Source: Ignavibacteria bacterium
Lineage (GTDB): Bacteria; Bacteroidota; Ignavibacteria; Tepidaquicellales; OLB5
Length of the DNA: 64,000 nt
NCBI GenBank assembly: GCA_017303675.1
Contig: JAFLBX010000002.1
Location: 957,642-1,021,641 of the forward strand
Reading direction: 5' to 3'
Shown here in pieces: positions 47,051-55,300 of this stretch; positions within the stretch are counted from its first letter, which is position 1, and each line of letters starts with the position of its first letter. Below the pieces are notes generated by a model, which ran no database searches, was not told where the DNA came from, and saw only the letters and a list, made by a program, of their open reading frames with translations. Both the position numbers and the translations under genes were made by a program.

Positions 47051-47356
47051 TTATGCTAAAAATGATATGTTTTATTGATTTATAATTAGTTAAGATTACA
47101 AATATATGCAAAATTTCAGAAACTTGAAAGTGCGAAATTAGAGTAAATAGGTTAAATTTGATGAAATAATGCTTGTAAGGCTGTCTCATTTGTCTCACAT
47201 TTCGGGTTAATAATTTATTTTTATGTATTTTCATTGATACTGGTTAGTTTTTGCGAAGTTTCTCACCGGTGCTGATTTTTTAGTATAAATGAGACATGTG
47301 AGATTTCTTGATTTTAGTCTGTAATACGGGAATTGTTGATGTTGTCTCAAAATGTT

Positions 47357-47745
47357 GTCATTCTGAACGAAGCGTAACGCAGTGAAGCGGAGTGAAGTCA
47401 CGCAGTGCTCTTCTACATCCAGACGATATTTTACAATGCATCTGTTTTCATTGAAATGCCCTTCGACTTCGCTCAGGGCGACAAAATTGCTTCGCTCGCA
47501 AAATTTATATTTTTCTTGTGACCCCCACTCCACGAGTCAAAGACTCGGTAGAGTCATAGACCTGCTCCCACATGGCAGAGCCAGTCCTTCGGCCTGTCAG
47601 GGGGAGAGTGACTATATTTGTCTTTCGGTTTCACTCGCAAAGCAGCAGTAGCAGGCGCGGCTTGCCCGCCTGGATTTATATTCATCAAAAGCAGACGTCC
47701 CATCATGCCGTTGGCTTGACCAGGCGGGACGTCTCTACAAAAAGC
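47357..47745. repeat. composite repeat block A-B-C (left flank of island)
   Basis: Module A is at 47357-47439, B at 47486-47615 and C at 47616-47745. Each matches modules at 54664-55300. Confidence 0.85.
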
Positions 47746-47755
47746 AAAAGATTAT

Positions 47756-48661
47756 TCATTCGGCTTCTGCAGCAGGCGCGGAATCGCCTTCAATGTATTT
47801 TTTCAAAAAGCGGGCAACGACATCGCGCGGTGTGCGGGGTGAAAACTTGGCGACTGCCGCATATACCGCATCCATATCATAACCGCCCCGCGGACGCTTT
47901 TTGGCAGCTTCAGCTGCGGCTTCAAGGGTTCTGCATGCCAATACAAGCTGGCGCACGCCAACCGGCGCTATATACATTCCGTTCTTGTAGTTCTCGCTTT
48001 CACGAAGCAATACCTGCTCTACATTATACTTTATAATTTCAGGCACGGATTTGCCGCCGTGTCCCGCCGAGAGTGACATCCTGTTTATACATCCTTTTAC
48101 AAGCGGCGAACTGACTTTGCATAACTTACCTTTAAGATTTATTTCAATGTGATCTACATCACCAAGCTTATCATATAAAGCTATATCCAGGAACAACTTC
48201 CTGATATCGCCGTCAAATTCAATTGGCTGCCCTGCCCCGTGCTTTGTGCTTACAGCCTCCGTGTGCTCACCCGCGGTAACTGCCGGCAAATGAGAGCTTC
48301 TATTTTTAAGCTCATCCAGCATACCTAAAACTTTTTTAAGCCTTTGGGCTGAATAGCTGAAACCGAACTCAAGCGAAAGCGCTTCCCGCATTTCATTGTA
48401 GGTTTTGCCCTTTTCCTTAAGCTCTGATACCAGCTTCAGATCACGGTTTGAAACGGGGCATTGTACCGATTTGCGGTTGAAGGTTTTATACATACCCGGG
48501 ATTTTTTTATTGATCTCACGGTACAGCGTGGCGCGCGAGATGTTATGTTTTTTAAGCGTGCCGTTAAATACGGTGCGGAAATCATCAGGGTCATTGTTTT
48601 CATAAACCAGCTTAAGGGTGTTAACGTCTTCGTGAAGCTCCTTATTGAATTTTTTTGGCAT
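47756..48661 (-). CDS. hypothetical protein with two HTH-like segments
   Basis: 301-aa ORF. ISRATLYREINKK and TYNEMREALSLEFGFSYSAQRLKKVL resemble resolvase/transposase-type HTHs. No catalytic domain recognised. GC is mosaic: the 3' third is about 55%, the middle about 30%. Confidence 0.45.
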   Translation of the reverse strand: MPKKFNKELHEDVNTLKLVYENNDPDDFRTVFNGTLKKHNISRATLYREINKKIPGMYKTFNRKSVQCPVSNRDLKLVSELKEKGKTYNEMREALSLEFGFSYSAQRLKKVLGMLDELKNRSSHLPAVTAGEHTEAVSTKHGAGQPIEFDGDIRKLFLDIALYDKLGDVDHIEINLKGKLCKVSSPLVKGCINRMSLSAGHGGKSVPEIIKYNVEQVLLRESENYKNGMYIAPVGVRQLVLACRTLEAAAEAAKKRPRGGYDMDAVYAAVAKFSPRTPRDVVARFLKKYIEGDSAPAAEAE

Positions 48662-49352
48662 ATTTTATACGGGTTAGTTTGGAATTTAATGTTTTTAAAA
48701 GGTATTTTGAGGAATAAAATATATATGCTGTTTGCATATATGGCAAATATAATATATGCGTATAATATATGTCAAGGGGGAAAATTGGGGTGACCTATGC
48801 CCGCAGAGTCCACCTTTTGAGAACATAAAGTCAGGGATTCTGCATGGACAGAAAGTTTTTTTAACCCCGAAGGGGTGGAATTTTTGTAGATTTTGGTTGT
48901 TGCTTTTTTGGTGAACCCTGAAAGGGTGAAATTATGAAAAGAAAATAATGTCACCCGTTCCGGGTTAAATTATTTTTTGGATCTAAGGTTACAATAATAG
49001 CACCGCTTCGCGGTTATGTATAAAACACTGTGGGGTGGTAAAAAAAGCCCTGGCGGCCTATGGACTGACTCCGGCATAGTAGAAATATGTATTCGTTTTG
49101 AGGCAGGCACAAACGACGGGGAAATGGCGGCAGATTGATAGTTGCTAACACAGAGACACAAAGAGCACAGAGGAATAAAGAAGGGTTAAAGTTATTTTTT
49201 GTAAAGCTAAACGCCGTTTCGCTTGCCCGAATCAGTGATTCGATCTGTAACAATTACGTACAATGCCGGAAATGCGCCATGGTTAATAGACGTTGGTGAG
49301 AACCTTAGAAAGCAACACAGGCACCAACAACGGTGAATTATGTACTTTGTTA

Positions 49353-49383
49353 TTTGTTTTTTAAATAATATTTAGTATATTTT
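49353..49383 (+). promoter_or_regulatory. candidate Bacteroidetes-type promoter (-33 TTTG, 19-nt spacer, -7 TATATTTT)
   Basis: tttg at 49353-49356, a 19-nt spacer, then tatatttt at 49376-49383. This compares with the -33 TTTG / -7 TAnnTTTG consensus. The background is AT-rich, so a chance match is plausible. Confidence 0.25.
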
Positions 49384-49389
49384 ATTAAG

Positions 49390-49773
49390 GGCATAATGTC
49401 CCTCGAAAGGAGTTTCTTATGTTTAGAAACATTTTTGAGGGCGGCGTGCCTCTATAATATTATGGATACAACACGGTGAATATCTACTGCACAGTCAGTG
49501 ATAATGATATTCTCTGGGTAATCTAATTTTGAAACAATCCTCAGGATGAAAGCACCAATATGGTGCAAACGTCGTCTTTAGGAACTTCGAAAAAGGAAAA
49601 CTGCGAGTCTAACCAACGAAAAACAGAAAGCCGAAAGAAAACATAAGATTATAGAGGGCAACCCAACCTAAAAAGTTGGGGTATAGTAGAAAACGGCTGA
49701 GGGTGGTTCCCTCAGTGTCTAGCCTACCGCGCACTCACCCTCAATTTAGACCCCTCATTTGAGGGGTTTTTTA
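49390..49773 (+). ncRNA. candidate approximately 380-nt plus-strand transcript (ncRNA or leader-peptide RNA), unclassified
   Basis: Bounded by a Bacteroidetes-style promoter candidate and a plus-oriented terminator. Its only ORFs are tiny, including a 12-codon ORF at 49419-49457 (MFRNIFEGGVPL) preceded by AAAGGAG. It contains several local hairpins. Confidence 0.3.
49749..49773 (+). terminator. rho-independent terminator oriented for plus-strand transcription
   Basis: cccctcatttgagggg is followed by tttttt on the plus strand. On the minus strand the stem is followed by tctaaatt, which is a poor terminator tail. Confidence 0.65.
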
Positions 49774-49851
49774 TTGTATTTACTGCAACTTTTTAGACGC
49801 TATAAATGAAATATTTAAAATTAGAAAGTTCACTTTTTTAAAAAACTTTTA

Positions 49852-50583
49852 TTAATTCTTTAATAGTTCAACAGCATACTTTTTGACTTTTTCCGATAAT
49901 ACCTGTTCACTAAATCCACAAAGCAAACCAATTAAAACTGTAACTCGGAAATCAGAATTTATATCAACTGTAGAAATACTACCCAATTCAATGTTTACAA
50001 CACCTAAACTAAAAAGTAAACCAATAATTAGTGTTAACAAGCCCGCAAATGAAAGTCGAATAACTGGCTCTAGTCTATCCTCTTCTATGATATGCAGGTT
50101 TTCAAAACTTAATTGTGTTTTCCTTGCTCCAAATGACAACCAAACACCAGGCATTGAACTAGCAATCAATATTAGATAAATGGTTGAAGACCAATTATTG
50201 TAATAACTGACAAATGAAATTAATACAAAAAATAAGCAAAATGCTATTGAGTAAATACCCAACTTTATCATATATTTATTTTTAATAATTCCACTCATTT
50301 TAACAACAATATCATATTTCAAATTGGCCAATGCTTGTAAAGCAACTACTGGATTTGCATTAGCACCAGCTAAACCAGCTTGTGCTAGAGAAAGGATTTG
50401 AAAAAAGTATTGCATATAAGATTTATTATCATCTTTAAAGATATTTTGTAACACAACCAATGCTTTCTCAATATCACCTTTCAAAATGAGTTGATTGCTT
50501 GAAGGAATATTTTCAGTAATATTAAATAAAATCTCCTTAGGAAATTCTTTATGTTGTGAAACTATAAATGCACCTTTTTCCAT
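49852..50583 (-). CDS. membrane protein (soluble N-domain + 4 TM), unknown function
   Basis: ATG 50583 lies 2 nt after the upstream stop, with GGGAGA 5 nt upstream. TM segments are IYSIAFCLFFVLISFVSYY, IYLILIASSMPGVWLSF, FAGLLTLIIGLLFSLGVV and VTVLIGLLCGF. Confidence 0.5.
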   Translation of the reverse strand: MEKGAFIVSQHKEFPKEILFNITENIPSSNQLILKGDIEKALVVLQNIFKDDNKSYMQYFFQILSLAQAGLAGANANPVVALQALANLKYDIVVKMSGIIKNKYMIKLGIYSIAFCLFFVLISFVSYYNNWSSTIYLILIASSMPGVWLSFGARKTQLSFENLHIIEEDRLEPVIRLSFAGLLTLIIGLLFSLGVVNIELGSISTVDINSDFRVTVLIGLLCGFSEQVLSEKVKKYAVELLKN

Positions 50584-50585
50584 AA

Positions 50586-50789
50586 TTATCTCCCACAACA
50601 GGGGCATTTATCTACTTCACCCCCTGTAAAAGAGAAAGATTTACCCAATTTATTAAAACCTTCTGACAGATCTTTGCTCTTATCAATCTCTTCTAACTCT
50701 TTTAATAATTTATCTTCAGTAGTCGTTCTTTTGGTATATCCTTTTTTATCTAATTTCTCTTTAACTTGTTTTAACATTGGTGTTAACAT
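50586..50789 (-). CDS. small charged protein with C-terminal CPCCGR tail, unknown function
   Basis: 67-aa ORF with a strong SD (GGGAGG, 5 nt spacer) before the ATG. Translationally coupled to the downstream membrane protein. Confidence 0.45.
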   Translation of the reverse strand: MLTPMLKQVKEKLDKKGYTKRTTTEDKLLKELEEIDKSKDLSEGFNKLGKSFSFTGGEVDKCPCCGR

Positions 50790-50840
50790 TTTAACCTCCC
50801 GATTATGTTTAGTTTATAAAAATTCTTTTTTTTTGATTAT

Positions 50841-51320
50841 TCACTCTACTTCTACCAACCATTTATAATTAATCATTACCCAGCCATCCTCTGACTTTGG
50901 GTCAACTTTACTTGAACCTTTTACATTTAATGTTCCATCGATATTAACAGTAAAAGACCCATTTGATTTTAGCTTGTATAAGTTCTTTACGTTTTCTCTT
51001 GTTAAGTCACATCTTGGACAACCGACAACAGTTCCGTCATTGAAGTAACCGACAAGACCGCCATTAGATGAAAAGAGGTATTGTAATTTCCGCTTATTCT
51101 GATTTTCTTCTTTACTACTTTTATTATCTCGCTCTACTTTGTCCGTAGTGTTCTCTTTCTCAACTAACTCTTTTTCCCTAATATTTAATTCTTTTTCTTT
51201 TAAGTTTAATTCGCGCTCCTTTAATGAATCATCTTTCGTACATTTTGAGAGAGTGCAAATAAATAGAAACAAGAAAAAGCTTAAACAAGATTTCAAAAGA
51301 ATGTTTTTAATTTTTTCCAT
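50841..51320 (-). CDS. secreted/membrane-anchored protein with KE-rich coiled-coil, unknown function
   Basis: Signal-like LLKSCLSFFLFLFICTLSKC, a coiled-coil KERELNLKEKELNIREKELVEKE, and a C-terminal beta-rich domain with CPRCD. ATG 51320 is preferred; TTG 51338 is possible. Confidence 0.45.
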   Translation of the reverse strand: MEKIKNILLKSCLSFFLFLFICTLSKCTKDDSLKERELNLKEKELNIREKELVEKENTTDKVERDNKSSKEENQNKRKLQYLFSSNGGLVGYFNDGTVVGCPRCDLTRENVKNLYKLKSNGSFTVNIDGTLNVKGSSKVDPKSEDGWVMINYKWLVEVE

Positions 51321-51346
51321 ATTGTAATATTGTTTCAATTTCTATT

Positions 51347-54300
51347 TTAATCCCCCTCAACAATCTTTATTTCTTCTTCGGTTAAGCCGTAAAGCTCGTA
51401 AACCAACCGGTCAATCTGGCGGTCAAGTGCGTTGCTCTTATTTTCGTAAAAGGTTTTATCTTTGTCTGTGTTTACTCGGTTTAAAACTGATTTGGTTTTT
51501 ATCAAATTATCAACATTCTCAATAATAGCATAATAGATGTTTTTATTTTCATCCTTAATATTCTTAATTTTTAACCTTCCAAAATATTGTTTTGTACATG
51601 TAACCCACCCGCCCCTGAAAATATTACTTATATTTCTCAGGTACCAAAATAATAACTTTGAATTAATAAGACCTAATACGTATTTCTCTGAATAATTCTG
51701 ATTTAAAACAGTAATACTAAAACCTCCGCTTGCCATCAAACAATATTTCGAATTGCCCGATATTAGCGAAAAAGATCCTTTCTCTGCCAAAAGAGGAATT
51801 AGGATTTGAGAGTTTTCATGCAATTTCAAATTTCTAGGAGCGCTATAACTATACCATTCTTTGAATTGTTTTCTCTTTTTTAGCTGCAATTTGTTCTGTA
51901 TTAAATACTTGTATGCATTTGGGAATCTTTCATTCAATTCAGCCTCACCAATTAACTCAAAACCATCATTTATGAAATAATATGGAAAAATTATCCTAAA
52001 TGTATTTATAGGGTTGAATAAATATCTTTTGAAGTCTGTTGCAAATATTGGGACCCTACTGATTTCTGCTTCAATGTTATTTTTTGTAAATTCCGATTCA
52101 TCAAGCATAAAGATCTTATCATTACCCGAAGATGACCCCCTACTTATTTCACAAGGTAACTGTAATAATTCTGTTGTATTTAATTCTAATTTTTCAATAA
52201 TGCTCTTGAATTTTAAATTTTCGAATTCCCATTCAGTACCTATTTCTGAAATATCATAAGTAATGTATTCAATCTTATCCTCTCTTAAATTCGAAACACT
52301 TGGTTTAGAGAACCTAAATGAGTTTGTGCTCTTTTTTTGCAAAACTATAATTGACGTATAAGTAGTTGCATTTACGAATATTTGTTGTTGTCTAAAATCC
52401 AAAATTGTATTTAGAAGATTACCTGCATATATGAATTTTCGAATATTTTCTCCATAGTCAGTAGTAAAAAATTTATTAGGCACAATAAAACTAGTTAACC
52501 CTCTTTGATTAATGCTATATATAGCTTTTTCGATAAAAACTACATACAAATCATAATTGCCCGATTTGGCTGAAAGATAATATTTTTTCAAATAATCTGC
52601 AATTTTGGGTGTGGTTTCTTTGAAAATTTGAATTCTAACATACGGCGGATTACCAACAATTGCATCAAATCCACCATTTTTCATAATAGCAGGAAAGGCA
52701 TCTTCAAAGTTCATTGCGTTAATTTTCTTTTCTTCTTCTTCAGACCACCCCGTCGCTTCGCGCCACCCCTCCTTGGCAAGGAGGGGAGCGTCGTTTGTAT
52801 AAATATCAGTACCAATTAATGAGTTACCGCAGATAATATTTTTGCTCAGGTCAGGCAGGATCTTTTCTTTAAACATTGCCTGCATTTCGTTTGCAGTTGC
52901 AAGGGTTTCATCTTCAAGCAGCTTTAAATAAAGTGAAAGCTGGGTTACTTCAACTGCCTGGTGATCAATATCAACTCCGTAAACATTATTAAGGAGAATC
53001 TGCCTTTTCTGTTTTAGTGAAAGTACCCACAAGCCATTACTGAAAATACAGCCGTCAGCTTTTGCTTCCTTAGGGTTTAGCTGGTAATACTTTGAGTGAT
53101 ACCTGAGAAGAGTATCGTAAACGGTAATTAAAAATGAACCGCTTCCGCAGGAAATATCGGCAAACCTAAGCTTTGATATTTCAGCAGGTGTTTTACCTTC
53201 GATAAGCTTGCCTACAGTGTTATCAACAATATACTGGACAATATACTGCGGAGTGTAATAAACGCCGCCGGCTTTGCGAACTTCGGGTTTTTCTTCAATG
53301 GTAACACGTTTATCTGTAGCGTGAACTACCTTACCCAGGAAGCGCTCATATATGCTGCCTAATATGTGAATCGGGATCGAGTTAAAGTTATACGGCGAGT
53401 TAATATGAGAAAGCTCTTTGCAAATATCCTCAAAGTCTTTGTCATCAGGGACAATTGCTGTGTTAGACCCCCTTTGTATTTCCCCATTGTTAAGTGGGAG
53501 TCGATCGATGAAATGCTCTTTAAATACGATACCGTTATACTTAGCATTGAGCGAGCGGCAGTCAGCAATGAAATCACCCCATGCTGTGCCTTTATCTCCA
53601 TATGTGCTTATATGATGCTCGCCTTCTATCAGCATATCTTCGAGGAAACGGATAAATACAAGGCGGTCAATTGTCCGCTGGGTTGCCTCGGTTAATTCTT
53701 CACTTGTAAGCGCGGGGTTTTTCTTTTTGAAAGAGCGGGCAAGGGTATTTCTGATCTCATCGAGCTCTTCAAGGAATGATTCATCAATGCTCTGGTATGA
53801 ACCGGGGAACAAGCCTTTTTGCACGGCTTTGCCGCGCGGCTTCGGCATTGTTTCGGCAAATTTTTCTATTGAGCCTGATTCAACCGCTTCACGGGAAAAG
53901 AGGTAATACAGCTTAGAGAATTTTTCCTTATCGGTATATTCAGTGTAATGGAAGCTTAAAACTTTCCGTTCTTTGGTATATTTTATATCAGGCTTATAAC
54001 GTGAATCCAGAATATGGAATTCTTCGAAATCAGTGAGGACAACAAGCGGAGTTTGGGCATTCCATCCGTAACGTATCGCCTGGAAGGAATCATATGGATT
54101 GGCAAGTGAGCGGGAGGGTTTTTTAGCTTCAACATAAAATTTGGGGTCACGGTAATTTGGTGAAAGGAAAAAAGCGTAATCAGCGCGTTTTTGGGTTTCT
54201 TTATCTTTTACACGGCGTTCTACTTTTACTTCCTGCTCGTAAGGATTTTTCTGGTGTTCATGGTTTACGTCCCATCCCAGGGCAATGAACAGCTTATCTA

Positions 54301-54415
54301 TGAAATCAAGCCTTGCCTGGGATTCAGAGTAATCAGAGGCCAGGTAATGTTTTTCGTTGGCGTTAAAATCGTTTACAAGTTTTTCAATTAAGCTGTATGC
54401 AGATTCAAGGGACAT
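51347..54415 (-). CDS. type IIG restriction-modification enzyme (fused PD-(D/E)xK nuclease, gamma-class N6-adenine methyltransferase, TaqI-like specificity domain; Eco57I-like)
   Basis: The N-terminal nuclease motif is ADYAFFL...FYVEAKKP. The AdoMet motif I is ADISCGSGSFL and motif IV is IVGNPPYV. The C-terminal LINSKLLFWYLRNISNIFRGGWVTCTKQYFGRLKI is TaqI_C-like. The 1022-aa ORF is intact. Confidence 0.85.
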   Translation of the reverse strand: MSLESAYSLIEKLVNDFNANEKHYLASDYSESQARLDFIDKLFIALGWDVNHEHQKNPYEQEVKVERRVKDKETQKRADYAFFLSPNYRDPKFYVEAKKPSRSLANPYDSFQAIRYGWNAQTPLVVLTDFEEFHILDSRYKPDIKYTKERKVLSFHYTEYTDKEKFSKLYYLFSREAVESGSIEKFAETMPKPRGKAVQKGLFPGSYQSIDESFLEELDEIRNTLARSFKKKNPALTSEELTEATQRTIDRLVFIRFLEDMLIEGEHHISTYGDKGTAWGDFIADCRSLNAKYNGIVFKEHFIDRLPLNNGEIQRGSNTAIVPDDKDFEDICKELSHINSPYNFNSIPIHILGSIYERFLGKVVHATDKRVTIEEKPEVRKAGGVYYTPQYIVQYIVDNTVGKLIEGKTPAEISKLRFADISCGSGSFLITVYDTLLRYHSKYYQLNPKEAKADGCIFSNGLWVLSLKQKRQILLNNVYGVDIDHQAVEVTQLSLYLKLLEDETLATANEMQAMFKEKILPDLSKNIICGNSLIGTDIYTNDAPLLAKEGWREATGWSEEEEKKINAMNFEDAFPAIMKNGGFDAIVGNPPYVRIQIFKETTPKIADYLKKYYLSAKSGNYDLYVVFIEKAIYSINQRGLTSFIVPNKFFTTDYGENIRKFIYAGNLLNTILDFRQQQIFVNATTYTSIIVLQKKSTNSFRFSKPSVSNLREDKIEYITYDISEIGTEWEFENLKFKSIIEKLELNTTELLQLPCEISRGSSSGNDKIFMLDESEFTKNNIEAEISRVPIFATDFKRYLFNPINTFRIIFPYYFINDGFELIGEAELNERFPNAYKYLIQNKLQLKKRKQFKEWYSYSAPRNLKLHENSQILIPLLAEKGSFSLISGNSKYCLMASGGFSITVLNQNYSEKYVLGLINSKLLFWYLRNISNIFRGGWVTCTKQYFGRLKIKNIKDENKNIYYAIIENVDNLIKTKSVLNRVNTDKDKTFYENKSNALDRQIDRLVYELYGLTEEEIKIVEGD
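52766..52786. repeat. perfect 9-bp-stem palindrome inside the R-M coding sequence
   Basis: cccctccttggcaaggagggg sits within a roughly 50-nt patch of about 70% GC (52744-52793). The patch encodes ...PLLAKEGWREATGWSEE... in frame. Confidence 0.8.
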
Positions 54416-54498
54416 AGTTAGTCCTCATTTTATATAAATTAATGGTAATATCAAATTTAGAAAAAAGTAATTTCTAATAAAACCCTAAAACAAAAATA

Positions 54499-54555
54499 GC
54501 GCAAATCACACACATGGGAACAATGATATGCTCCGCGCTTATGTATGATTTGCGC
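54499..54555. promoter_or_regulatory. imperfect inverted repeat upstream of the R-M gene
   Basis: gcgcaaatcacacacat (54499-54515) pairs with atgtatgatttgcgc (54541-54555). It lies 85-140 nt upstream of the R-M start codon. Confidence 0.25.
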
Positions 54556-54663
54556 CACCCTCTTTTCAAATATCAAATAACAAAGAACAAATAGCAATGA
54601 AAAAATCAATTGCTTAAGTATTCAGGGAAGTTGGTTTGGGTTTGAGGAGTTTTAGTGATTAAT

Positions 54664-54905
54664 GAGATTGCTTCGCTTTCGCTTGCAATTTATATATTTT
54701 TCTTGTGACCCCCACTCCACGAGTCAAGGACTCGGTAGAGTCATAGACCAACTCCCCCTGCAAGGGGGAGAGTGACTATGTTTGCCCTACGATTTCGCTA
54801 GCAAAGCTTCTGCAGCAGGCGCGGCTTGCCCGCCTGGATTTATTTATTCATCAAAAGCAGACCTCCCCTAATGCCGCTGGCTTGACCAAGCGGGACGTTT
54901 CTACA
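54664..54905. repeat. composite repeat block B-C (right flank of island, same orientation as the left copy)
   Basis: It shares two identical runs with 47486-47560: atttttcttgtgacccccactccacgagtcaa (32 nt) and gactcggtagagtcatagacc (21 nt). It also shares gcaggcgcggcttgcccgcctggatttat and catcaaaagcagac. Confidence 0.85.
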
Positions 54906-55011
54906 ACAATTTTCGTCTAGATCCTTCGACGAAGTTTATCCCGCAAAATTTTTTGCGGGACTCAGGATGACATGGATTAAAGCTTACGTATAGATTACAA
55001 GAACATGTGTT

Positions 55012-55300
55012 GTCATTCTGAACGAAGCGAAGCGGAGTGAAGTCACGCAGTGCTCTTCTACATCTAGACGATTTTTTACAATGCTACCGACTCATTTGGA
55101 ATTCCCTCCGCTCGCAAAATTATTATGGGCTTCTGCAGCAGGTGCGGCTTGTCCGCCTGGATTTATTCATTCATCAAAAGCAGACGTCCCAGCGGGACGT
55201 CTATACAGAGGCAAAATTTTTATTTTTCTTGTGACCCCCTCTCCACGAGTCAAAGACTCGGTAGAGTCATAGACCTGCTCCCCCTGCCAGGGGGAGAGTC
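55012..55300. repeat. composite repeat block A-C'-B' (rearranged third set)
   Basis: Module A is at 55012-55084 (gtcattctgaacgaagcgaagcggagtgaagtcacgcagtgctcttctacatctagacg). A shortened C is at 55125-55205 and B at 55210-55300. Confidence 0.85.

What the first reader, a model, noticed from the sequence alone, without database searches (positions are those of the whole stretch)
49852..51338. Three unrecognisable AT-rich genes co-oriented with the R-M gene: candidate novel accessory or abortive-infection module
Three genes follow the type IIG R-M gene on the same strand, starting 26 nt after its stop.
- (i) A 159-165-aa protein with a signal/anchor, a KE-rich coiled coil (KERELNLKEKELNIREKELVEKE) and a beta-rich C-domain containing CPRCD.
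- (ii) A 67-aa highly charged protein ending in KCPCCGR.
- (iii) A 243-aa protein with a soluble N-domain and four TM helices.

Genes (ii) and (iii) are separated by only 2 nt (TAA tt ATG). Both have strong SD sites (GGGAGG and GGGAGA). The few host genes I inspected (for example 31391 and 51320) lack an obvious SD.

Sample lines across 51.6-52.6 kb (the adjoining 3' half of the R-M gene) give about 25-35% GC, and the cassette looks equally AT-rich by eye. Neighbouring core genes are about 40-45%.

A small soluble protein tightly coupled to a membrane protein, next to an R-M gene, is the general architecture of toxin/antitoxin or membrane-effector defence pairs. I could not match any of the three proteins to a family I know.
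Basis: partly seen in the sequence, partly recalled or inferred. Interest (0 to 1): 0.72.

Follow-up and report, generated by a model that had tools for sequence, protein, structure and literature searches.

The report
Conserved zinc-knuckle plus membrane-protein defence-island pair
The three genes are real, but they form two separate units: a small lipoprotein gene that travels with the restriction enzyme, and a tightly coupled pair (a 67-aa zinc-knuckle protein plus a 243-aa membrane protein of unknown fold) that recurs across several bacterial phyla inside anti-phage defence loci, making it a good untested candidate for a new defence system.

Summary
Three co-oriented, AT-rich, unannotatable genes follow an intact type IIG R-M gene in an Ignavibacteria genome.

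- **g1 (159 aa)** is a lipoprotein. In three Ignavibacteria loci it stays attached to the R-M gene. Its more distant relatives sit in housekeeping contexts.
- **g2-g3** is an autonomous, obligate pair.
  - A g2-like gene lies immediately upstream of g3 in 29 of 30 assessable non-redundant loci. Natural g2-g3 fusions exist.
  - The g3 family has about 1,000 clusters at 50% identity, in Bacteroidota, Acidobacteriota, Ignavibacteria and other lineages.
  - It has no hit in Pfam, NCBIfam, PADLOC or PHROGs. A confident AlphaFold model (pLDDT 88) has no structural match.
  - No third partner gene is conserved.

The pair recurs in defence contexts:
- inside a type I R-M operon next to Hachiman;
- next to Hachiman, TIR plus caspase, type I R-M and STAND or SMC ATPase genes;
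- in a sister Ignavibacteria locus, its slot after R-M-g1 is filled by a GmrSD type IV restriction gene.

A near-identical relative lacks the whole 7.5-kb island.

Best reading: an uncharacterised two-gene defence or conflict module with a membrane effector. The mechanism is inferred, not shown.

The parts
51347..54415 (-). Type IIG restriction-modification gene (1022 aa). It contains a D..ExK nuclease motif, the methyltransferase motifs DISCGSGSF and NPPY, and a C-terminal TaqI_C specificity domain.
   Evidence: PADLOC REase_MTase_IIG E = 1.5e-211 over residues 10-1019. Pfam Eco57I, N6_Mtase, MmeI_Mtase, TaqI_C, HSDR_N. Motifs read from the translation.
51470..52640 (-). Variable specificity (TRD) segment of the R-M gene, low GC. 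It cannot be aligned between three otherwise homologous Ignavibacteria loci.
   Evidence: blastn block structure against L021 and L027. GC 0.297 for 51347-52640.
50841..51320 (-). g1: 159-aa lipoprotein. It has a signal peptide with an invariant lipobox Cys, an LKEKEL coiled-coil repeat, and a C-terminal domain with the invariant motif GYFxDG..CxRCD..W..Y. It is linked to the R-M gene, not to g2-g3.
   Evidence: Family alignment A5. The R-M-g1 block is conserved in L021 and L027. More distant homologs sit in housekeeping contexts.
50586..50789 (-). g2: 67-aa soluble, charged protein. It has an invariant N-terminal ML..L and a single C-terminal zinc-knuckle motif, CPxCG[KR]. It is the obligate partner of g3.
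   Evidence: Alignment A2. Present immediately upstream of g3 in 29 of 30 assessable clusters. Natural fusion P0237. Zinc-knuckle-like matches only.
49852..50583 (-). g3: 243-aa membrane protein. It has a cytoplasmic N-domain (beta-hairpin plus helices) and four membrane helices, with predicted N-in/C-in topology. The most conserved motif, GVWLSFGARKT...EEDRLEP..R, lies at the cytoplasmic end of TM2 and in the following loop.
   Evidence: Alignment A1. AF2 model with pLDDT 87.8 and pTM 0.72. Hydropathy and charge distribution. No Foldseek match in PDB or BFVD. 1016 representative relatives.
49697..49779 (.). Two terminator-like hairpins downstream of g3. One reads on the minus strand (49715-49697) and would end the R-M/g1/g2/g3 transcription unit. 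One reads on the plus strand (49748-49769 plus a T-tract).
   Evidence: Terminator scan. No minus-strand terminator-like site is found between the R-M start and the g3 stop.
49346..49745 (+). Conserved non-coding block of about 400 nt. It is about 91% identical to L021, against about 85% for the adjacent coding DNA and about 55% for the spacer. It is a candidate structured RNA convergent with g3. Whether it relates to g2-g3 is unknown.
   Evidence: Alignment A4 and identity profile. Fold z-score -5.5 on the plus strand and -3.4 on the minus strand. No Rfam hit. No other copy found.
47466..54922 (.). Island of about 7.5 kb: ORFan 301-aa gene, non-coding block, g3, g2, g1 and the R-M gene. It is absent from a 94-97% identical relative and lies inside an array of hairpin-rich repeats (47353-47756 and 54677-55300).
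   Evidence: Empty site in L015. Repeats. ORFan status of 47756-48661.

Best explanation
**Setting.** The region is a horizontally acquired defence islet in an Ignavibacteria chromosome. It is built from separable blocks:
- (a) a type IIG R-M gene with a swappable specificity segment;
- (b) a small lipoprotein gene (g1) that travels with the R-M gene;
- (c) a cargo slot holding the g2-g3 pair.

**What g2-g3 is.** It is an autonomous two-gene module, not an accessory of the R-M enzyme.
- g2 is a cytoplasmic 67-aa helical protein with one C-terminal CPxCG zinc knuckle.
- g3 is an inner-membrane protein with a cytoplasmic N-domain and four membrane helices.
- The two genes are translationally coupled and are always found together.

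**Most likely function.** An anti-phage or anti-mobile-element defence module whose effector is the membrane protein.

**Proposed mechanism (inferred, not shown).**
1. g2 binds the cytoplasmic N-domain of g3. Because each g2 supplies only two Cys ligands, it probably pairs through a shared zinc site, either with a second g2 or with the g2 paralog found downstream of g3 in Bacteroidota. This would hold g3 inactive or act as the sensor.
2. An infection cue releases or rearranges g2.
3. g3 then oligomerises or opens and collapses membrane integrity or membrane potential, aborting the infection. Alternatively, it blocks DNA entry.

**Shown:** the anatomy, obligate pairing, fusions, spread, foreignness and context.

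**Inferred:** the defence role, the topology, zinc binding, and membrane permeabilisation.
For: **Obligate pairing**
- A g2-like ORF ends 1-4 nt before g3 in loci from Bacteroidota, Acidobacteriota and Ignavibacteria.
- This holds in 29 of 30 assessable non-redundant clusters. The one exception is a 5'-truncated g3.
- A g2 paralog lies downstream of g3 in 7 of 30 clusters.
- P0237 is a natural g2+g3 fusion, and P0292 and P0299 carry g2-like N-termini.
- No third gene is conserved across 27 loci.

**Separability from R-M and g1**
- L027 has R-M-g1-GmrSD, with homology ending at the g1 stop codon.

**Accessory and foreign character**
- A relative has an empty site.
- The same cassette occurs at a different chromosomal site in L021.
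- The pair's GC is below that of its surroundings in most loci.

**Defence contexts**
- L005: HsdM-g2-g3-g2'-HsdS-HamA-HamB-HsdR, with gaps of only 1 to about 80 nt (mostly 2-10 nt).
- L006: HamA-HamB-g2-g3-g2'.
- L066 and L041: type I R-M.
- L067 and L003: TIR plus caspase genes.
- L031: a CAP12/Pycsar-type TIR protein.
- L007: PDC-S59/nSTAND. L008: LmuB-like. L003: PDC-M29A/AriA-like.
- A pooled PADLOC scan of 145 neighbouring proteins hit HamA, HamB, type I R-M, mad2, mad3, mad8 and PDC-M23B.
- By my own tally, 10 of 21 independent contexts hold a recognised or candidate defence gene nearby. A crude binomial null gives p of about 0.0002 to 0.03.

**Precedent**
- Genes embedded in immune operons have proved to be defence genes (10.1101/2024.01.29.577857; PMC11411939).

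**Membrane effector with a cytoplasmic face**
- The AF2 model has pLDDT 87.8.
- K and R residues lie only on the N-domain, the TM2-TM3 loop and the C-tail.
- The strongest conservation is in that cytoplasmic loop.
Against: - There is no experimental evidence and no homology to any proven defence protein.
- The context evidence is guilt by association from a small, hand-scored sample with a crude null.
- About half of the contexts show no recognised defence gene. L001, L004 and L039 look ordinary.
- The pair was not found on phages, plasmids or viral contigs.
- TM2 and TM4 are only weakly hydrophobic.
- Zinc binding and g2 dimerisation rest on a motif alone.
- The fusion-protein model was unusable (pLDDT 48), so there is no structural view of the g2-g3 contact.
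Confidence: 0.5

Rival explanations
1. g2-g3 is a toxin-antitoxin-like addiction module. g3 would be the membrane toxin and g2 a small labile neutraliser. Its role would be to stabilise genomic islands and neighbouring defence genes rather than to sense phage.
For: - It has a small soluble gene tightly coupled upstream of a membrane protein, conserved across phyla.
- It sits in islands and mobile-element contexts with recombinase, primase and transposase genes.
- It has low GC.
- TA pairs such as PIN/HicB lie nearby in L010.
Against: - Natural g2-g3 fusions are hard to reconcile with a separately degraded antitoxin.
- The second g2 paralog downstream of g3 is not a TA feature.
- g2 has no DNA-binding domain for autoregulation.
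- The pair is absent from the plasmid collection, where addiction modules are common.
- TA and abortive-infection roles are not mutually exclusive.
Confidence: 0.2
2. All three genes (g1, g2, g3) form one accessory module of the type IIG R-M enzyme. Such a module might, for example, regulate the enzyme or link it to the envelope.
For: - The genes are co-oriented with short gaps, and no terminator is predicted before the end of g3.
- The four-gene cassette recurs at another chromosomal site in L021/L022.
Against: - L027 keeps R-M-g1 but has GmrSD in place of g2-g3, with the breakpoint at the g1 stop codon.
- More than 25 g2-g3 loci lack both g1 and a type IIG R-M gene.
- More distant g1 homologs lie away from any R-M gene.
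Confidence: 0.05
3. g2-g3 is an ordinary accessory membrane function unrelated to conflict, such as metal or ion handling or an envelope stress response. It would merely tend to land in variable genome regions.
For: - One JGI record calls a homolog "cation transporter-like permease".
- g2 has a metal-binding-type motif.
- Several contexts show no recognised defence gene.
Against: - No transporter family or fold is detected.
- No synteny is conserved with any metabolic or envelope gene.
- It is embedded inside a type I R-M/Hachiman operon.
- It is positionally replaced by GmrSD.
- It is present or absent between near-identical strains.
Confidence: 0.15
4. g2-g3 protects without killing the cell. 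It would act at the membrane to block phage DNA entry (superinfection-exclusion type), or to sense envelope perturbation.
For: - The effector is an inner-membrane protein, and no enzymatic partner is conserved.
- It sits next to R-M systems that act after DNA entry, so the two would be complementary layers.
Against: - Known exclusion proteins are mostly prophage-encoded, and this pair was not found on phage or viral contigs.
- The conserved residues face the cytoplasm, not the periplasm.
Confidence: 0.1

Closest known systems
Lambda RexAB and other two-gene abortive-infection systems with a membrane effector (PMC12894663 describes a RexAB-type system)
   Same: A two-gene unit made of a soluble cytoplasmic partner and a roughly four-helix inner-membrane protein. 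It has no enzymatic domain and sits among defence genes. The proposed output is loss of membrane integrity.
   Different: - No sequence or fold similarity.
- The soluble partner here is only 67 aa with a zinc knuckle, not a roughly 280-aa sensor.
- The membrane protein carries its own roughly 105-aa cytoplasmic domain.
- The pair is chromosomal rather than prophage-borne.
- Function is untested.
Transmembrane effectors of signalling defence systems (CBASS/Thoeris SLATT, Pycsar PycTM, Thoeris ThsF/DUF2270; 10.64898/2025.12.03.692087)
   Same: A membrane-spanning protein with a conserved, charged cytoplasmic surface. In several loci it lies beside TIR genes.
   Different: - No hit to SLATT, DUF2270 or any PADLOC TM-effector model.
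- Most g2-g3 loci have no cyclase or TIR signal generator, so the pair is not an obligate effector of such a system.
Genes embedded in R-M and other immune operons, such as TgvAB within a type I R-M operon (PMC11411939) and the Hma-embedded candidates (10.1101/2024.01.29.577857)
   Same: The genomic logic is the same. g2-g3 is inserted between hsdM and hsdS in L005, lies after a type IIG R-M gene here, and is interchangeable with GmrSD in L027.
   Different: The embedded systems described so far are nucleases, RNases or ATPases. None is a zinc-knuckle/membrane pair.
Rad50/SMC-type zinc hook and C2H2-type zinc knuckle (CPxCG)
   Same: A single CPxCG motif, with invariant C62 and C65, that supplies only two ligands. 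This would need a second chain to complete a zinc site. The zinc-hook comparison comes from my own knowledge.
   Different: - The motif sits at the extreme C-terminus of a 67-aa protein, not at the apex of a coiled coil.
- There are no His ligands as in C2H2 fingers.
- Metal binding is untested.

Membership tests
Type IIG restriction-modification enzyme (the upstream gene) | A single polypeptide with an N-terminal PD-(D/E)xK nuclease, a gamma-class N6-adenine methyltransferase (motif I and NPPY) and a C-terminal target-recognition domain | tested here: met
   PADLOC REase_MTase_IIG E = 1.5e-211, covering 10-1019 of 1022 residues. Pfam Eco57I, N6_Mtase, MmeI_Mtase, TaqI_C, HSDR_N. DYAFF..VEAKK, DISCGSGSF and NPPY read in the translation. 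Activity not testable.
Any known or candidate defence protein family in PADLOC-DB v2 (including Kiwa, Zorya, CBASS/Pycsar/Thoeris TM effectors, Abi families, PDC and HEC candidates) | Significant profile match of g1, g2 or g3 | tested here: not met
   Zero families at E <= 1 for all three proteins. Also none in Pfam, NCBIfam or PHROGs above noise.
Known membrane-protein folds (PDB to April 2026; BFVD viral models) | Structural similarity of the confident g3 model | tested here: not met
   Best Foldseek E = 0.69 with TM 0.26 (PDB), and E = 0.28 with TM 0.20 (BFVD). Profile against PDB sequences: nothing below E = 0.79. AlphaFold DB was not available.
Bacterial lipoprotein (g1) | N-terminal signal peptide with a hydrophobic core, followed by a lipobox ending in an invariant Cys | tested here: met
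   Hydrophobic segment centred on residues 12-18. Cys27 is invariant in 18 homologs and mostly preceded by G or S. Lipidation itself is not testable.
Zinc ribbon (g2) | Two CxxC (or CxxH) knuckles in one chain forming a four-ligand zinc site | tested here: not met
   Only one invariant CxxC (C62, C65) and no other conserved Cys or His in g2. g3 has no invariant Cys or His. g2 is therefore a single knuckle, and any zinc site must be intermolecular.
Type II toxin-antitoxin system | A small labile antitoxin neutralising a co-transcribed toxin, usually with a DNA-binding domain for autoregulation | tested here: inconclusive
   The gene order and coupling fit. However, g2 has no DNA-binding domain and natural fusions exist. 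Toxicity and stability are not testable here.
Defence-island gene (operational definition used in defence-system discovery) | Family members are significantly enriched next to known defence systems across genomes | tested here: inconclusive
   By my own tally, 10 of 21 independent contexts have a recognised or candidate defence gene nearby. A crude binomial null gives p = 0.0002 to 0.03. A family-wide score against a proper background was not computable here.
Abortive-infection membrane effector (RexB-like in function) | Infection-triggered loss of membrane potential or integrity, with cell death before phage release | not testable with these tools
   Only the topology and conservation pattern are available.

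The most novel reading that the evidence does not exclude
g2-g3 founds a new, widespread anti-phage defence system. It comprises about 1,000 clusters at 50% identity, mainly in Bacteroidota, Acidobacteriota, Ignavibacteria and other environmental lineages. These lineages would have been missed by E. coli- and Bacillus-centred screens. The effector would be a membrane protein of a previously unseen fold, controlled by a tiny partner that dimerises through an intermolecular zinc knuckle. In Ignavibacteria the module may additionally travel with a roughly 400-nt structured RNA.
Probability: 0.4. Interest if true: 0.7.

Novelty: new variant of a known kind. Interest (0 to 1): 0.55.

Why it matters
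If g2-g3 defends against phage, it would add a compact two-gene system with a new membrane-effector fold and an unusual zinc-knuckle regulator. It is abundant in phyla such as Bacteroidota, Acidobacteriota and Ignavibacteria, where the defence repertoire is poorly charted. Its placement inside type I R-M/Hachiman operons, and its swap with GmrSD, give a clear and cheap experimental test. The locus also shows how a type IIG R-M gene is built from exchangeable blocks: enzyme core, specificity segment, tail plus lipoprotein gene, and a cargo slot.

Tried and rejected
**Family and fold searches**
- Pfam, NCBIfam, PADLOC and PHROGs scans of g1, g2, g3 and the 301-aa ORF returned only noise.
- Foldseek of the g3 model against PDB and BFVD found nothing.
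- Profile searches of g3, g2 and g1 against PDB sequences gave nothing for g3 or g1. For g2 they gave only generic CPxCGK zinc-knuckle matches.
- Long family members were scanned for informative fused domains. The extensions are duplicated N-domains or g2-like segments. One has a ParA-like P-loop start, and none has a known effector or sensor domain.

**Structure of the fusion**
- A single-sequence AF2 run on the natural fusion P0237 was meant to show the g2-g3 contact. It gave pLDDT 48 and is unusable.

**Mobile-element carriage**
- g3 was not found in viral contigs, phage records or plasmid records.

**Conserved non-coding block**
- No Rfam family matched.
- No other copy was found in the window, the fetched loci, phages, plasmids or viral contigs.
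- With only two distinct sequences, no covariation test was possible.

**301-aa ORF**
- It is an ORFan, so it gave no clue to how the island moves.

**Literature**
- Searches found no description of a zinc-knuckle/membrane pair of this kind.

**Ideas considered and dropped**
- RiPP precursor for g2: rejected because g2 is fused to the g3 N-terminus in some genomes and no modifying enzyme is conserved.
- Serine hydrolase for g3 (WLSFG motif): rejected because there is no canonical GxSxG and no conserved His.
Full report
**Source and observation**

Exact protein look-ups place the window in an Ignavibacteria bacterium MAG. NCBI annotates atpD, a 301-aa hypothetical protein, g3, g2, g1, an "N-6 DNA methylase" and an ABC substrate-binding protein as consecutive genes (MBN8586208-214).

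The three ORFs are exactly as described.
- g1 is 50841-51320 (159 aa from the ATG, 165 aa from an upstream TTG).
- g2 is 50586-50789 (67 aa, ending KCPCCGR).
- g3 is 49852-50583 (243 aa).
- All lie on the minus strand, downstream of a 1022-aa ORF at 51347-54415.
- The gaps are 26 nt, 51 nt and 2 nt (TAA-tt-ATG).
- GGGAGG precedes g2 and GGGAGA precedes g3. The latter is formed by g2's own conserved Gly-Arg codons, so it is partly a coding constraint.

The upstream ORF is a complete type IIG enzyme (PADLOC E = 1.5e-211 over its full length; Pfam Eco57I, N6_Mtase, TaqI_C, HSDR_N).

- Cassette GC is 0.299 against a window mean of 0.385.
- Only 1.9% of equal-sized windows are as low.
- The 3' part of the R-M gene is 0.297.
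- The flanking core genes are 0.46.

Only 7 of 47 long ORFs in the window have GGAG or GAGG upstream. So the remark that host genes lack a Shine-Dalgarno site holds as a tendency.

None of the three proteins hits Pfam, NCBIfam, PADLOC or PHROGs.

**The island**

A contig with 94-97% identical flanks (L015) has the SBP gene and atpD separated by only about 1.4 kb of hairpin-rich repeats. The window carries about 7.5 kb more (47466-54922) inside that repeat array.

The island contains:
- the R-M gene, g1, g2 and g3;
- a conserved non-coding block;
- a 301-aa ORF that is an ORFan, with only its own cluster among 5.8 billion proteins.

**The "module" is two units**

Another Ignavibacteria lineage (L021/L022) carries R-M (975 aa)-g1 (150 aa)-g2 (67 aa)-g3 (243 aa) at a different chromosomal site, between lpxD and lpxC.
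- Window 49346-51469 is about 85% identical at the nucleotide level.
- The R-M 5' half is about 80% identical.
- The R-M specificity segment (51470-52640) cannot be aligned.

A third lineage (L027) lies in the same lpxD neighbourhood. It has R-M-g1 followed by a 543-aa GmrSD_N protein instead of g2-g3. Its homology to the window ends exactly at the g1 stop codon, position 50840.

So g1 belongs with the R-M gene, and g2-g3 occupies an exchangeable cargo slot. In a sister genome that slot holds a type IV restriction gene.

g1 itself is a lipoprotein.
- It has a hydrophobic signal with an invariant Cys.
- It has LKEKEL coiled-coil repeats.
- Its C-terminal domain carries the invariant motif GYFxDG..CxRCD..W..Y.
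- The family is small (20 proteins).
- Its more distant members in Dysgonomonas and other Bacteroidota sit among housekeeping genes with no R-M gene nearby.

**g2-g3 is an obligate, widespread pair**

- g3 has at least 164 relatives at 40-61% identity in the word-indexed search.
- The exhaustive profile search gives 1016 representative clusters at 50% identity (E <= 1e-3), of which 820 are at E <= 1e-10.
- Named carriers include Emticicia, Chryseobacterium, Chitinophagaceae, Flavobacterium, Saccharicrinis, Bacteroidales, Pyrinomonadaceae, Thermoanaerobaculia and Aminicenantes.
- In every fetched locus with upstream DNA, a g2-like ORF ends 1-4 nt before g3.
- After collapsing to 33 clusters at 95% identity, 29 of 30 assessable clusters have it. 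The one exception is a 5'-truncated g3.
- Seven clusters, in named or inferred Bacteroidota carriers, have a second g2 paralog immediately downstream of g3.
- g2 has invariant M1, L2, L6, L32, C62 and C65, and the C-terminal motif CPxCG[KR].
- A natural fusion exists: P0237 has g2 at residues 5-83, including CVCCGK, and g3 at residues 93-339. Two other long proteins begin with g2-like helices.
- Other long members duplicate the g3 N-domain.
- An all-against-all comparison of neighbours in 27 loci finds no third conserved gene.
- g3 homologs were not found in viral contigs, phage genomes or plasmids.

**Structure of g3**

The AF2 model built with the family alignment is confident (pLDDT 87.8, pTM 0.72). 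Its elements are:
- a beta-hairpin (residues 6-22);
- helices at 29-48 and 53-71;
- a long helix at 78-128 that runs into the membrane;
- helices at 134-153, 173-193 and 212-225;
- a C-terminal amphipathic helix.

Hydropathy is strong for 107-128 and 173-193 and weaker for the other two. All K and R residues lie in the N-domain, the 154-172 loop and the C-tail. This fits an N-in/C-in topology.

The best-conserved stretch is GVWLSFGARKT...F..L...EEDRLEP..R, at the cytoplasmic end of TM2 and in the following loop.

Foldseek finds nothing in PDB (best E = 0.69, TM 0.26) or BFVD. Profile searches of PDB sequences are empty for g3. For g2 they return only generic CPxCGK zinc-knuckle matches.

g2 has a single knuckle and g3 has no invariant Cys or His. 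Any zinc site must therefore be shared between chains. This is inference.

**Genomic context**

| Locus | Arrangement |
|---|---|
| L005 (Chitinophagaceae) | HsdM-g2-g3-g2'-HsdS-HamA-HamB-HsdR, gaps of 1 to about 80 nt (mostly 2-10 nt) |
| L006 (Flavobacterium) | HamA-HamB-g2-g3-g2' |
| L066 and L041 | Type I R-M with a YgjP-like gene upstream; L066 also has CHAT and TIR proteins |
| L067 (Saccharicrinis) | Primase, transposase and P22_AR_N genes, then g2-g3-g2', then caspase and ThsB_TIR |
| L003 (Emticicia) | Homologous TIR and caspase genes downstream, and a PDC-M29A/AriA-like ATPase upstream |
| L031 | A CAP12/Pycsar-type TIR protein follows the pair |
| L007 | PDC-S59/nSTAND |
| L008 | LmuB-like SMC ATPase and a serine recombinase |
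| L013 | SLATT_5 |
| L009 | Patatin |
| L010 | PIN/HicB |

The TIR-plus-caspase pairing is the composition of type IV Thoeris (10.1101/2024.10.24.620036).

A pooled PADLOC scan of 145 neighbouring proteins returned HamA, HamB, type I R-M, mad2, mad3, mad8 and PDC-M23B.

Several contexts show nothing recognisable (L001, L004, L034, L035, L039, L068).

By my own tally, 10 of 21 independent contexts hold a recognised or candidate defence gene nearby. The null uses the 1.5% defence-gene frequency quoted in PMC13434031. It gives p between 0.0002 and 0.03, depending on neighbourhood size. This is suggestive, not rigorous.

The pair's GC is below that of the surrounding locus in most cases.

Genes embedded within immune operons have repeatedly proved to be defence genes (10.1101/2024.01.29.577857). 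TgvAB inside a type I R-M operon is one example (PMC11411939).

**Interpretation**

The best-supported reading is that g2-g3 is an autonomous, horizontally mobile two-gene defence or conflict module. Here it happens to ride behind a type IIG R-M gene.

I propose that g2 binds the cytoplasmic N-domain of g3, and that the natural fusions argue for direct contact. I further propose that g2 pairs through an intermolecular zinc knuckle. An infection cue would then switch g3 into a membrane-damaging state, in the manner of RexAB-like or TM-effector systems. An exclusion mechanism is also possible.

Every step beyond anatomy and association is inference. Rival readings are given with their weights: a TA-like addiction module, an unrelated accessory membrane function, and the original three-gene R-M accessory idea. 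The last is largely refuted by the L027 breakpoint and by the many R-M-less loci.

**Comparison and novelty**

No membership in any known defence, TA, transporter or structural family could be established. Every sequence or fold test was negative.

In kind, this resembles membrane-effector abortive-infection pairs and the "embedded" defence genes. In its parts, it is new: a single-knuckle 67-aa partner, a membrane protein with its own cytoplasmic domain and an unmatched fold, and an optional flanking paralog. Literature searches found no description of it.

I rate it a new variant of a known kind, with moderate interest (0.55). It is a well-defined, cheap-to-test candidate. It is not a surprise in principle, given how many defence systems are being found.

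**Side observation**

About 110 nt downstream of g3, after a poorly conserved spacer, lies a block of about 400 nt (49346-49745).
- It is about 91% identical to L021. That is more conserved than the adjacent genes.
- It has hairpins with loop-only changes and at least one compensatory pair.
- It folds better on the plus strand (z = -5.5 against -3.4).
- A plus-strand intrinsic terminator sits at its 3' end.
- It has no Rfam match, and no other copy was accessible.
- It may be a structured RNA that travels with g2-g3 in Ignavibacteria.

Noticed in passing
window 49346-49779: A non-coding block of about 400 nt downstream of g3 is about 91% identical to L021:10838-11250. The adjacent genes are about 85% identical and the intervening spacer about 55%. 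The plus strand folds with z = -5.5 and ends in an intrinsic terminator (49748-49769 plus a T-tract). One hairpin shows a compensatory A-U to G-C change. There is no Rfam hit and no other copy was found. It is a candidate novel structured RNA.
   Followed up: partly
window 47353-47756 and 54677-55300; L015:8560-9700: The island is bracketed by a mosaic array of hairpin-rich repeat modules of 30-120 nt, for example CTCCCCCTGSCAGGGGGAG and GCGGCTTGCCCGCC. These occur only here in the window. They also fill the 1.4-kb empty site between the SBP gene and atpD in a near-identical relative. They may be a recombination or insertion hotspot.
   Followed up: partly
window 51470-52640 (within the R-M gene): The target-recognition segment of the type IIG gene cannot be aligned between three loci, although the flanking parts are 77-87% identical. 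Its GC is about 0.30. This suggests specificity-domain swapping, and therefore different recognition sequences in each lineage.
   Followed up: partly
window 47756-48661 (-): A 301-aa ORF (GC 0.466, weak HTH_7-like N-terminus) is an ORFan. Its only relatives among 5.8 billion proteins are its own cluster at 90% identity or above, seen on short contigs. It is inside the island but absent from the L021 version of the cassette.
   Followed up: yes
L027:3881-8946: A sister Ignavibacteria locus has the type IIG R-M gene and g1, followed by a 543-aa GmrSD_N (DUF262) type IV restriction gene, in the slot that g2-g3 occupies in the window. This pairs modification-blocked and modification-dependent restriction.
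   Followed up: yes
L005:8066-18710: A tightly packed eight-gene operon in a Chitinophagaceae MAG: HsdM, g2, g3, g2', HsdS, HamA, HamB, HsdR. Two other modules (g2-g3 and Hachiman) are nested inside a type I R-M system.
   Followed up: yes
L003:10945-12908 and L067:11044-12403: Homologous TIR and caspase-like genes (the composition of type IV Thoeris) lie directly downstream of g2-g3 in two unrelated Bacteroidota genomes, in opposite gene order.
   Followed up: partly
window 50841-51320 and alignment A5: The g1 lipoprotein family (about 20 members, in Ignavibacteria and Bacteroidota) has an invariant C-terminal motif, NGG.VGYF.DG....C.RCD, with no match to any known domain or PDB sequence. Its role next to the R-M gene is unexplained, and it was not modelled.
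   Followed up: partly
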